Assembly (NCBI GenBank): GCA_964057225.1
Contig: OZ059898.1
Coordinates: 5,766,001 to 5,830,000, forward strand
DNA length: 64,000 bases
Direction: 5' to 3'
Source of the DNA: Auanema rhodensis
Taxonomy: Eukaryota > Animalia > Nematoda
Part shown: one piece after another, positions 14,111 to 21,862 of the stretch
Numbering within the stretch: position 1 is the first letter of the stretch
Layout of the letters: every line of letters starts with the position of its first letter
Notes under the pieces: model-generated
Told to the model about the DNA's origin: nothing
Seen by the model: the letters and a program-made list of their open reading frames with translations, nothing else
Database searches by the model: none
Position numbers and translations under genes: made by a program

Positions 14111-14523
14111 TGAAGATAGAGGGCTCTTCAAATAGCCTCCCAGGTTCACACTTTCTATTCTATGCCCTGTTAACGTAAAATACTATTAGAGGAAGAAAGA
14201 TTCATTCATATGCCATTCAGATATACATAATACAGAATATAAGGACTAGAAGATATATAATAAGACTAGATAAAATACATAGAAGACTAGAGTGAATGTA
14301 ATAAGACTAGATATACATCACTAATGAGACTAGAGATAGTCTTACTAAAGGACAAGGATAAAACGGTGGTTCAGACTAGATGAGTCATAAGATAAAGACA
14401 GCAACGAGGAGAGAGAAAAGCGACCGTCCGCGACGGTGGTATAAAAACAGAGTGCCCGTGAATCTCATCAGCCAACGTGATGAGATTGCATCGATTGAAT
14501 GATGGATAATCGCATTCGCGATA
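14111..14523 (-). repeat. 3' LTR (413 bp)
   Basis: Appears identical to 21450-21862; minus strand reads TATCGCG...CTTCA; internal AGACTAGA repeats and a 10-bp inverted repeat at 14461-14487. Confidence 0.95.
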
Positions 14524-14533
14524 TTCCGGGCCA
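14524..14533 (-). promoter_or_regulatory. Putative plus-strand priming site (atypical PPT, TGGCCCGGAA)
   Basis: Immediately precedes the 3' LTR; GC-rich tract ending GGAA, not a pure purine run. Confidence 0.4.
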
Positions 14534-14556
14534 GGAGAGAGAAATCAGAACTGATT

Positions 14557-14886
14557 TCATTCTGCTAGTTCCTCCGCAAACTGCAGCTTGCATAATACAC
14601 CAGGATGATCGTGGTCCAGTCCGCTTCCTTTGCACACATGACATATTTTCTTCATCTTCTCCACACACGGTTTTCCAAAGTGGTTCCGCAAACACTTCAA
14701 GCACATGTTGATCAACTTGCAACGCTTGACGCGTTGTGCTGCAGTCTTGTAGACTGTGCATTTTCCCATGGTGTGGCCCTTCTTCCAACAGAGTTGACAT
14801 TTCATGTCTTCTTCCATTTTTCTGTACTTCACTTTAGAGTTGTTCTGCTTTTTTGGTGCAGACGTATTCTGACTTTTGTTAGGCAT
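14557..14886 (-). CDS. Basic nucleocapsid-like protein with three zinc knuckles (BEL/Pao Gag type), possibly a spliced exon starting at 14950
   Basis: CQLCWKKGHTMGKC (CX2CX4HX4C), CLKCLRNHFGKPC (CX2CX3HX4C), CHVCKGSGLDHDHPGVLC (CX2CX8HX4C); TTTCAG acceptor at 14956-14951 with an open in-frame extension. Confidence 0.8.
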   Translation of the reverse strand: MPNKSQNTSAPKKQNNSKVKYRKMEEDMKCQLCWKKGHTMGKCTVYKTAAQRVKRCKLINMCLKCLRNHFGKPCVEKMKKICHVCKGSGLDHDHPGVLCKLQFAEELAE

Positions 14887-15113
14887 CTTTGAGTTGCCGT
14901 TATCCTGGAGTTGATCAAGGGAATCGCTCCATTCTTTGATGTTATCAAGACTGAAATAATGATGGTTTTTATACGTAGTATACCTCCCCGCGGCAAAATG
15001 ATAAATTGTGTAGGACTGGTGTAAATCAAATTGAACAATCGTTTGCTATGATAGGGAACTAAGAAATCGAGAAAATAAATCGAGGACTCACTGGGTATTG
15101 AACCCGTCATCAA

Positions 15114-18656: not shown

Positions 18657-21434
18657 CGCGTGAGTTATATTTCTTTTTAAACAACTTAACTGTCTTGCTA
18701 AGGCAGTCAGGTTACGAGTTACGAGTTTCCGATGGAGAAGAGGGACTCATAATCATTTTGTTTGAAGAGAAATATTATTGTTCAAGTTAATTTTGTGTTT
18801 AATCTAGCTAATTTGTGGATTGATTATTAAAATCAATTGAATTAAAGTCCGAATATAATAGCTGTCGATAGAAGGAATAACAATATATAATATAAATAGG
18901 AATATAAATAAACAAGTAATATAAGCAAATAAGATAAGCAAATAGTTCACTATTAGAAGGTACAATGAATATTTAGTTGAATATTTGTTAACAGTTTTTT
19001 CTTTGGAGAGTTATACTGTTAGTTTTTTCGTGTAGTTGTTACTGTTTCGTTAAATTACTTGTGTGGAATCTTTTGTAAAAAAATGTATGTTTTATCTTTT
19101 GAATATATTTTTTTTTTTTTTTGTTAGCTAAGTTAGTATATTTTTAATTTTTTTTTTTTTTTTTTTTAAAATGGAGATTGTTCAGGCAAAGATAATTCAA
19201 TAAGTATCTTTCTCTGGTTAAAAAAGAAAAATTGGATGATTCACTAGATGAGAGAACAATTCAAGTTGAGAGATTACTGTAGGAAATAGAGAGAAAAAAT
19301 TGAGTTTCCCAAAATCGATCAAAAAATGTGAGCAAACTAGCTTGGATGAATTCAGTAAAGTTTTCTGAGTAATTTGATACTAAATATGCTGTTGTTTTTT
19401 ATCAAAAAATATAATATCAATATTAATATTAATTGGTTGAAATATAATAAGGATATCCAAAAAATATTCAAAATATTATTGTTTGATTGATCAGAAAGTA
19501 TGTGTATGAAAAGGATGAGTGATTTGAGACAAAAGATTTATTTCTGGACAGATGAACAAAGGAAATTGTATAAGATAACAGATGTGAATGAAATATAAAC
19601 AATATAAAATGTGAAATAATAAAATTAAAATAAAACAAATTGAAATTATAAAATAACTTACCAACTTAATGTAAATGTATAATTGATACCAGAGAGTATC
19701 AATTCAAATTCAATAAGCGGTTAAAGTGTTAATGCGAACAAATGAAAACTAACTTGATTCTCCTTGAGGATCCTTGATGTCGATTGTCCTTGTCTGGTGA
19801 ATAGGTTAGCAGATGGCGTCGGGTGCTGTGGCTGGTTGTAGCGGCGGAATGAATGACCTGTCTGGCAGCTAGGCCGTGTGGGATGTTAAGAGGGAGGAGC
19901 TAATCTGCAAAAAGTATATGTAAGATTATTAAATGAGATTATTTAATGCGTTTGAAACAAAACGAGTGGGTTAACTTCTCATAACATTTTAAAATGTTTT
20001 GATATTCCATGTCATTCGATGATGACCTAGATAATGTGTGAGAGATGTTTGCGTGGTGCTAATGGCGCCGCACCAGGTCAATGAACAGATGGCAACATCT
20101 TTTGTCTTTTTTCGCGTATCTTGTCAACATATTTGCTAAAATCGACTTTTTGGTGCAAAATGTTGGAAATATCTCTTAACCTTTGCTGAGATTTATATTT
20201 TATGCTTTAACATGCGTAGGATGATAATTCGTAGCTCTTTCGTGTCTTATCATTATCTCATCTATGTAGGATGGGATATTATGATGTTTTGTGATTTTTC
20301 ACAGAAATTTTCATCTGCGTAGGATTTTAACAATATAGTTAATGTATTTTGTCCTATAGAACGTGGGTGATGATCTTATATAAGATAAAATATATAAATT
20401 TTATGAATTTCATGATTTGGACTCTGACCTTTCTCATTGACCCGTTGGTCGTTACATATGACTCATATGGTTGGAAACAATAGATTTACAGACAATGGAT
20501 GAATAAAGAAATTTAAAAACTATAAAACAAGCCGTAAATAGTAAAAACTCGGAACTCTTTCGCATTTTTATATAAACAACACCTACCGAGAGTGCAAGGG
20601 TACCAAACAAACATCAACAAGTAGGTCAACAGACGTTCCTTGTTGATAGGCTCCTTCCACACATGTTCACAAATAATCGTTGATCTCTAAGATACTGACT
20701 CCTTTACAGATGAGGAAACAGACAGCATTACTCATATAGCAAGGAGACATTGGTCTAAGATGCCTTTTAGTCACCTATTCAATTGATTCACAATTGTTAA
20801 AATAACTTTTGCACTCGAAGTCTATCAAAACTGTTTGCAATGATTATTGAAAGTTACGTAAAATATAAAAGATATAAAAAGGTCTCAAAATCAAAGAATA
20901 AATGAATAAATAGCGTTTTTAGACGGTAGCTTTGCTAATGCGTAATTCATATCATTGTTTCTCACTGTCCTCAGTCAGTAAAAATAAGATCGCCATAAAA
21001 TGTGTTTGTTGGTACTTTGTCTGCATTTTTCTCGTACTCTCGCATATTCTTCCTAGGAAAATACTGTGAAACATAATAAGGGGTGATCAATCCCAGCTGA
21101 GTCACTGCCGGCAAGTTAAAGGAAGTAGCCATTGGGTAATCCAATAGAGTTTATATAGCGAACAACCCACTATGTTACTTTCTGTAATCATGTGGTACAA
21201 AAATATGGTATCAACCAAAATTTTAAATAATGTTTAATTATCACTGATATCTAGACAATATTTAACAACCAATTATGTCATACTGACATACGATTCCTTT
21301 AGAGTATTTAGATCAGTGAACTTATACTGTAAAGGACATCCAACGAGTCACTATTAACGAGCAGACTGGCTTGAAGAAAAAAAAAGAAAAAAGATAAAGT
21401 AGCGCAATAGAAAGGTCATAGAGTAGAAAGTGAT

Positions 21435-21446
21435 GCCGATGCACCA
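21435..21446 (-). promoter_or_regulatory. Primer-binding site complementary to the 3' end of tRNA-Gly(GCC)
   Basis: TGGTGCATCGGC, 3 nt inside the 5' LTR; the plus strand reads GCCGATGCA-CCA, matching the 3' end of animal tRNA-Gly(GCC) as recalled. Confidence 0.8.
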
Positions 21447-21449
21447 TTT

Positions 21450-21862
21450 TGAAGATAGAGGGCTCTTCAAATAGCCTCCCAGGTTCACACTTTCTATTCT
21501 ATGCCCTGTTAACGTAAAATACTATTAGAGGAAGAAAGATTCATTCATATGCCATTCAGATATACATAATACAGAATATAAGGACTAGAAGATATATAAT
21601 AAGACTAGATAAAATACATAGAAGACTAGAGTGAATGTAATAAGACTAGATATACATCACTAATGAGACTAGAGATAGTCTTACTAAAGGACAAGGATAA
21701 AACGGTGGTTCAGACTAGATGAGTCATAAGATAAAGACAGCAACGAGGAGAGAGAAAAGCGACCGTCCGCGACGGTGGTATAAAAACAGAGTGCCCGTGA
21801 ATCTCATCAGCCAACGTGATGAGATTGCATCGATTGAATGATGGATAATCGCATTCGCGATA
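21450..21862 (-). repeat. 5' LTR (413 bp)
   Basis: Direct repeat of 14111-14523, followed on the minus strand by AAA and the PBS. Confidence 0.95.

What the first reader, a model, noticed from the sequence alone, without database searches (positions are those of the whole stretch)
14111..21862. Pol-less LTR element that keeps an intact phlebovirus-type fusogen: candidate env-donor satellite of a nematode belpaovirus
Seen: apparently identical LTRs, PBS, ~2.7 kb AT-rich leader, and one uninterrupted 1180-codon frame in which a helical N-terminus joins in frame to the post-integrase (DUF5641-like) domain and a complete Gn/Gc-like envelope. No protease, RT (YxDD), RNase H or integrase DDE motifs are visible. 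Known: some nematode BEL/Pao elements (e.g. Cer13-type) carry phlebovirus-like class II env after pol in one ORF. Inference: identical LTRs imply recent retrotransposition in trans. Non-autonomous elements usually lose env, while this one lost pol and kept env in frame. It may be one half of a two-component system (helper supplies Gag-Pol, this element supplies Env/NC) or a defective-interfering genome.
Basis: partly seen in the sequence, partly recalled or inferred. Interest (0 to 1): 0.85.

Follow-up and report, generated by a model that had tools for sequence, protein, structure and literature searches.

The report
Gutted envelope retrotransposon, start frame broken
This is a recently inserted copy of an envelope-carrying retrotransposon, likely from a nematode, whose middle (likely most of gag and all of pol) is cut out and whose long reading frame is broken just after its likely start, so it is most likely a defective passenger of a longer relative that carries the same envelope gene, not an envelope donor.

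Summary
The anatomy is real: identical 413-bp LTRs, a PBS-like site, a 2.7-kb leader, and a 1210-codon stop-free frame joining a helical N-terminus to DUF5641 and Gn/Gc (Gc vs Atlas 7A4A, E 3e-33); no pol. The env-donor reading fails. Public contigs show a longer form that leaves this sequence at a 7-nt overlap at 18044-18050 and runs into the same env (X4, X8, X9), so the presumed helper is not env-less. The short junction is bridged in 4 of 6 DNA runs laid, all also sharing a frame break near 18715-18725: the likely start opens only 14 codons. In-frame deletion is a 1-in-3 chance, and listed coding differences look neutral (10 of 14 non-synonymous). Best reading: a microhomology-deleted, non-autonomous derivative; one locus or many is open. 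Extras: a spliced triple-zinc-knuckle gene behind env (GT-AG joint in one RNA-guess run; precedent Cer19-ORF2), and insertion 4-6 bp upstream of a tRNA-Val gene with a 3-bp duplication. The scan noted a pol-less, env-keeping belpaovirus on other DNA before (e1-9854194).

The parts
21450..21862 (-). 5' LTR, 413 bp, ends TA...CA on the element's strand
   Evidence: identical to 14111-14523; an X8 contig also ends at the matching boundary 14523
21435..21446 (-). PBS-like site, 3 nt inside the 5' LTR; match to the tRNA-Gly 3' end is recalled, not tested
18757..21434 (-). AT-rich non-coding leader, native to the family and not a pol remnant; holds splice-site-like motifs
   Evidence: no ORF over 70 aa; no pol motifs; covered in all bins by run X8, which shows only the longer form
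18712..18756 (-). Likely native start (AUG at 18756, second at 18750) opening only a 14-codon frame; frame break near 18715-18725 at a short tandem duplication
   Evidence: X1, X2, X4, X5 match the window here, X8 and X9 differ
18051..18746 (-). Helical N-terminal domain, likely the matrix-like start of Gag (inferred from position); no credible homologue found
   Evidence: mostly helical but low-confidence model, pLDDT 41; 7 weak hits, not informative; X8/X9 contigs run on 862 letters unlike the window beyond 18044
18044..18050 (-). Deletion junction, 7-nt overlap between the two sides as laid
   Evidence: loose ends at 18044 and 18050; P(>=7 nt) about 5e-4 for random joins
17763..18047 (-). 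DUF5641, the post-integrase domain of BEL/Pao polyproteins
   Evidence: PF18701 E 1.1e-14; nearest hits are nematode Pao polyproteins
16764..17465 (-). Signal-like segment, short Gn-like ectodomain, transmembrane segment, tail and Gc signal
   Evidence: hydrophobic segments at codons 428-447, 541-580, 638-672; match to phenuivirus Gn chains E 3e-5; 7 of 7 shared Cys kept
15114..16763 (-). Gc-like class II fusogen with C-terminal membrane anchor
   Evidence: PF07245 E 3e-64; Atlas Gc 7A4A E 3e-33; 22 of 25 shared Cys kept
16635..16717 (-). Exon overlapping the start of Gc in another frame; its only AUG (16639) is in frame with the zinc-knuckle exon
   Evidence: X12 contig; GT/AG ends; phase check
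14557..14950 (-). Spliced exon, 130 open codons, with a BEL-type triple Cys-His box (nucleocapsid-like second gene)
   Evidence: joint 14950-16635 with GT-AG ends in X12; acceptor is the element's only TTTCAG; motifs; atlas neighbours are zinc knuckles, scores under 0.9
14111..14523 (-). 3' LTR, preceded by a short, weak purine-rich stretch
14108..14110 (.). 3-bp target duplication, left copy (right copy 21863-21865), 4-6 bp upstream of the tRNA-Val(AAC) gene at 14032-14104

Best explanation
This is an internally deleted copy of a longer envelope-carrying BEL/Pao element, likely of a nematode: the stretch between the N-terminal domain and DUF5641 (inferred to be capsid through integrase) is gone at a 7-nt overlap, and the frame is broken just after the likely start, so it most likely makes no proper polyprotein and would move only as a passenger of the longer form. 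The deletion likely arose by a reverse-transcriptase template jump or by microhomology repair after insertion (inferred). Env survives because it lies 3' of the cut, the cut happened to be in frame, and the copy is young (0.37% from the longer form). LTRs, PBS and leader are intact, so co-packaging by the longer form is predicted but not shown. The spliced zinc-knuckle gene behind env and the long leader are inherited features of the family.
For: Longer form: contigs leave the window at 18044 (862 further letters; X8, X9) and at 18050 (410 letters in X4; at least 255 in X8, X9), and on the env side continue into the same DUF5641-env. Window vs the listed X8 contigs: 22 differences in 5908 bp. 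Short junction bridged in 4 of 6 DNA runs laid (X1, X2, X4, X5), and all 4 match the window at the frame break, where X8 and X9 differ. Four out-of-frame AUGs lie between 18760 and the first in-frame Met. 10 of 14 listed ORF differences are non-synonymous against 0.76 expected (p 0.43); env part 7 of 11 (p 0.27). X1 and X2 show no branch to a longer form. Relatives P0005 and Atlas have pol domains just before DUF5641.
Against: Where both forms occur the short-form contig is deeper (X4 32.4 vs 6.4; X5 22.8 vs 7.1), though the tool warns depth is no copy number. Both LTRs carry an allele at 14275 that X8 lacks and that is the major one in X4. X4's main contig differs from the window at 4 sites in 14581-15850, so more than one short-form haplotype may exist. 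Env cysteines are largely intact. A thin X12 contig (depth 2.1) carries window-type alleles, so the copy may be transcribed. The difference test is small and drawn from a cut table (53 rows hidden). The deleted sequence itself was not read.
Confidence: 0.66

Rival explanations
1. Defective-interfering, multi-locus parasite: the short form is packaged and copied by the longer form, has spread to several loci and outnumbers it; env is a passenger, kept perhaps for cis signals or for the overlapping exon of the zinc-knuckle gene.
For: Short form deeper than long form in X4 and X5; intact cis elements and identical LTRs; possible second haplotype in X4; cattle ERVK D-type elements show that defective forms can dominate new insertions (PMC10924933, passages).
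Against: No second insertion site seen; one inherited locus explains sharing among runs; this array also duplicates inserts without transposition (identical 2465-bp insert twice, 4982-bp exact block); no longer form seen in X1 or X2.
Confidence: 0.2
2. Env-donor satellite or selected Env producer: the short form makes Gn/Gc from a downstream AUG, by re-initiation after the short frame or from a spliced or trans-spliced RNA, and is kept for that (complementing env-less relatives, or blocking entry for the host).
Against: The longer form carries the same env; the start frame is broken in all short-form runs; differences look neutral; the only spliced RNA seen skips Gc.
Confidence: 0.1
3. Assembly artefact: the short form is a collapse of a full-length element in a repeat array.
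For: The element lies in a long tandem array.
Against: Junction bridged by independent contigs in X2, X4 and X5, from two studies.
Confidence: 0.02

Closest known systems
Atlas virus of Ancylostoma ceylanicum and Cer13-like nematode belpaoviruses (PMC9094657, passages; bioRxiv 10.64898/2026.03.22.711591, abstract to first results section)
   Same: Identical LTRs; helical N-terminal domain; DUF5641 then Gn/Gc in one frame; Gc matches 7A4A at E 3e-33; triple zinc knuckle present in the element
   Different: No CA, PR, RT, RH or IN in this copy; start frame broken; knuckles lie behind env as a spliced exon, not in Gag; 2.7-kb leader; TA...CA ends
Cer19 with Cer19-ORF2 of C. elegans and its env-carrying C. 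inopinata homologue (bioRxiv 10.1101/825315, passages)
   Same: A second, expressed zf-CCHC gene between the LTRs of a nematode LTR element, beside gag-pol and, in C. inopinata, an envelope gene; the paper links phlebovirus G2-like env to Cer19 elements of other Caenorhabditis
   Different: Position and splicing of ORF2 were not in the passages read (figure and supplement not seen); sequence homology not tested
Chicken EAV-HP deleted provirus (PMC3554524, passage) and cattle ERVK[2-1-LTR] D-type elements (PMC10924933, passages)
   Same: Internally deleted proviruses with intact LTRs that lack pol; D-type are mobilised in trans
   Different: Vertebrate retroviruses; env is partial there, complete here
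Ty3-type integration at RNA polymerase III start sites (recalled)
   Same: Insertion 4-6 bp upstream of a tRNA gene
   Different: One site only; different family; no targeting shown

Membership tests
Belpaoviridae (BEL/Pao), Atlas/Cer13-like | RT phylogeny within BEL/Pao | not testable with these tools
   No RT in the window; the longer form's interior could not be read
Belpaoviridae (BEL/Pao), Atlas/Cer13-like | DUF5641 post-integrase domain as in Pao polyproteins | tested here: met
   PF18701 E 1e-14; 4 of 4 hits are nematode proteins with this domain
Belpaoviridae (BEL/Pao), Atlas/Cer13-like | Phlebovirus-like Gn/Gc env in frame behind pol | tested here: met
Belpaoviridae (BEL/Pao), Atlas/Cer13-like | Triple Cys-His box within Gag (PMC554778, passages) | tested here: inconclusive
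   A triple box is present but as a spliced exon behind env; whether the parent's Gag has its own was not seen
Belpaoviridae (BEL/Pao), Atlas/Cer13-like | Complete Gag-Pol-Env polyprotein (autonomous element) | tested here: not met
   No PR, RT, RH, IN; start frame broken. It is a derivative, not an autonomous member
Atlas clade (2026 preprint definition) | CA core over 50% identical to Atlas CA | not testable with these tools
   No capsid-like part is left in this copy
Non-autonomous LTR family mobilised in trans | Intact LTRs and PBS, no pol | tested here: met
Non-autonomous LTR family mobilised in trans | Same junction at several independent insertion sites | tested here: inconclusive
   Junction in 4 of 6 runs, but flanks not visible in contigs; no genome held
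Two-component env-donor satellite | Helper lacks its own env | tested here: not met
   Longer form continues into the same DUF5641-env
Two-component env-donor satellite | Env translatable from the element's start and under purifying selection | tested here: not met
   Start frame stops after 14 codons; 7 of 11 env differences non-synonymous, p 0.27, small sample
tRNA-gene-targeting LTR elements (Ty3-like) | Repeated insertion at polymerase III start sites | tested here: inconclusive
   One site, 4-6 bp upstream; about 0.04 by chance within a unit, post hoc

The most novel reading that the evidence does not exclude
A nematode belpaovirus family that integrates at tRNA-gene start sites and makes its nucleocapsid-like protein from a spliced gene overprinted on and lying behind env has spawned a pol-less, defective-interfering form that outnumbers its parent, spreads to many loci and still supplies that protein and Gn/Gc from internal starts.
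Probability: 0.12. Interest if true: 0.72.

Novelty: new member of a known kind. Interest (0 to 1): 0.33.

Why it matters
As read here it is an ordinary fate of an LTR element, caught early with its parent still present in other samples. It offers a natural short-versus-long comparison for asking whether invertebrate envelope retroelements make defective-interfering forms. Two family traits deserve follow-up: a spliced nucleocapsid-like gene behind env whose upstream exon overprints the start of Gc (where three otherwise shared cysteines are missing or nearby), and possible insertion at tRNA start sites with a 3-bp duplication. My one search on tRNA targeting (listing only) showed no title on it for nematode BEL/Pao.

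Tried and rejected
No whole genome is held, so copy number and flanks could not be counted. Word-seeded protein searches: N-terminus plus DUF5641 gave 4 distant hits, covering about 31% of the query; longer env-bearing proteins gave 1 (P0005, 26%); the zinc-knuckle exon gave none. HMMER with the N-terminal domain over 1.84 billion representatives gave 7 weak multi-stretch hits: 5 TPR proteins, 1 LRR protein, 1 without a family; rejected as non-specific. The single-sequence fold had pLDDT 41, so no fold search was run. The ESM Atlas gave no answer for the N-terminal domain. Viral contigs: no relative. Metagenome contigs: 7 loci matching DUF5641 only; I read ORFs of 1 of 7 (L006), which has a different downstream ORF. 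Rfam found only tRNAs. The EspA Pfam hit is below its cut-off. No RNA holder is on record; X12 is an RNA guess and its uncovered bins are no evidence. Low-depth joints (X1 15893/20013, X4 18275) were set aside as likely library chimeras. Degraded pol in the leader is rejected. Bowen and McDonald 1999 is not held, so its account of extra ORFs in Cer elements is known to me only through a citing passage in PMC9094657. Searches for a published pol-less, env-keeping BEL/Pao satellite (listings only) showed no such title, which is weak evidence; bioRxiv supplements and figures were not seen.

Full report
Observation. The element spans 14111-21862 on the minus strand. Its LTRs (14111-14523, 21450-21862) are identical over 413 bp. 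On the element's strand they begin TA and end CA, and the flanks share a 3-bp duplication; 5 bp is what I recall for BEL/Pao. A PBS-like TGG motif lies 3 nt inside the 5' LTR; its match to tRNA-Gly is recalled. The leader has no ORF over 70 aa and none of the motifs scanned. The long frame 15114-18746 has 1210 codons stop-to-stop, with DUF5641 at aa 234-328 and Phlebovirus_G2 at aa 693-974 and no pol family. The env part matches Atlas Gc (7A4A, E 3e-33) and phenuivirus Gc and Gn chains. It keeps 7 of 7 Gn and 22 of 25 Gc cysteines shared by two relatives. The host is not given; a nematode is inferred from the nearest proteins and the splice sites.

Setting. The element interrupts a 251-bp tandem array of tRNA-Val(AAC) genes (191 copies counted), 4-6 bp upstream of one gene's 5' end. 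This recalls Ty3-type targeting (recalled), but it is one site, about 0.04 by chance within a unit and judged after the fact. The array also holds a Tc1-like 2465-bp insert twice, identical, inside a 4982-bp exact duplication. So inserts can be multiplied here without transposition.

The parent and the junction. No genome is held, so I used public runs: 15 listed, 11 DNA guesses and 4 RNA guesses. I laid 6 of the 11 and 1 of the 4. In X8 and X9 (one study, perhaps one data set) no contig bridges 18044-18050. One contig leaves the window at 18044 and runs on for 862 unlike letters. Another leaves at 18050 and on its other side leads into DUF5641-env. X4 holds the same 18050 branch (410 further letters), and X5 a 67-bp stub with the same linked difference at 18020. 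The two sides overlap by 7 nt, which random joins give about 5 times in 10,000. The missing stretch is inferred to be capsid through integrase, from its place between an N-terminal helical domain and DUF5641 in Atlas and P0005. The short junction is bridged in X1 (possibly the source), X2, X4 and X5: 4 of 6 runs, or 3 of 5 without X1, from two studies. It is therefore real and inherited or spread. The longer form covers the leader and env at about 99.6% identity (22 differences in 5908 bp of listed contigs). So the leader is native, and the presumed helper has its own env.

The broken start. The AUG at 18756, in an A-rich context, and the one at 18750 are out of frame with the long ORF and stop after 14 and 12 codons. 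The first in-frame Met is codon 71, behind four out-of-frame AUGs. The break lies near 18715-18725 at a short tandem duplication. X1, X2, X4 and X5 match the window there; X8 and X9 differ from it. So every short-form run carries both lesions. Env could still be made from an internal start, because it has its own signal-like segment at codons 428-447, but nothing here shows that.

Selection and age. Of 14 listed coding differences to the longer form, 10 are non-synonymous (expected share 0.76, p 0.43); in env 7 of 11 (p 0.27). The list is partial, since 53 rows were hidden, and direction is unknown. Zero LTR differences have probability 0.56, 0.21 or 0.04 at per-site divergences of 0.07%, 0.19% or 0.38% since insertion, so they show youth, not mobilisation in trans. 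Against my reading: the short form is the deeper contig in X4 (32.4 vs 6.4) and X5 (22.8 vs 7.1); both LTRs carry an allele at 14275 that X8 lacks; X4's main contig differs from the window at 4 sites in 1270 bp; and env-region contigs are about 1.8 times deeper than the N-terminal region in X8 and X9, which I cannot explain. The tool warns that depth is no copy number.

A second gene behind env. ORF 14557-15045 holds three Cys-His boxes of the BEL/Pao pattern (pattern from PMC554778, passages). In X12, an RNA guess, one contig (depth 3.7) joins 14950 to 16635 with GT-AG ends on the element's strand. Its short loose end fits a second, 95-nt GT-AG intron at 16718-16812. The acceptor is the element's only TTTCAG. 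The 83-nt middle exon has a single AUG, in frame with 130 open codons of the last exon; the other two frames give 1 and 39. That exon overprints env codons 677-704, and the three missing Gc cysteines fall at 666, 679 and 688. This rests on one contig in one run. No homologue was found by word search. A precedent is Cer19-ORF2, an expressed zf-CCHC gene between Cer19 LTRs, with env in the C. inopinata homologue (bioRxiv 10.1101/825315, passages; figures and supplements not seen).

Mechanism. Shown: deletion at a 7-nt overlap, broken start frame, intact LTRs, coexistence with a longer form in X4. Inferred: origin by template jump or microhomology repair; loss of the polyprotein; possible co-packaging by the longer form; the zinc-knuckle protein acting as an RNA chaperone. 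Confidence 0.66 for a defective derivative, 0.2 for a spreading multi-locus defective-interfering form, 0.1 for a selected Env producer.

Comparison and novelty. It works like internally deleted proviruses such as EAV-HP (PMC3554524, passage) and cattle D-type ERVK (PMC10924933, passages). It derives from an Atlas/Cer13-like belpaovirus (PMC9094657, passages; 2026 preprint, first part). It fails the two defining tests of an env-donor satellite. Searches (listings) showed no report of such a satellite. An earlier scan note describes a pol-less, env-keeping belpaovirus in another genome (e1-9854194, untested here), which keeps the theme alive but is not support. Verdict: new member of a known kind, interest 0.33.

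Noticed in passing
window 3147-64000: Tandem array of tRNA-Val(AAC) genes, 251-bp unit, 191 copies counted, with regional spacer subtypes.
   Followed up: partly
window 39012-41476 and 49850-52314: Identical 2465-bp insert with a Tc1-like transposase fragment (PF01498, E 3e-11) and 45-nt inverted ends, duplicated with the array at an offset of 10838 bp (exact block 4982 bp).
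   Followed up: partly
window 14761-15928 and 19867-20308, runs X8/X9: A second, diverged family member (contig depth about 50-68) matches short stretches of the zinc-knuckle exon, env and leader, suggesting these are family traits.
   Followed up: no
window 20055 (X4, X8) and 18887 (X5): Contigs leave the leader at these places, the same one in X4 and X8: structural variants of the leader exist.
   Followed up: no
window 14111/21449: In X1, X4 and X8 the LTR joins the PBS side without a branch to any flank. This may reflect pruning next to high-copy arrays, a weak hint that insertions lie in repeats.
   Followed up: no
window 16626 and 19464: The possible source run X1 differs from the window at these two sites: assembly error, allele or second copy.
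   Followed up: no
L006 679-7254: Marine metagenome BEL/Pao-like pol followed by a separate 630-aa ORF with a hydrophobic C-terminus, possibly another env type; not annotated here.
   Followed up: no
window 19753-19905: Acceptor- and donor-like motifs flank a GC-richer island in the leader, a possible non-coding exon.
   Followed up: no
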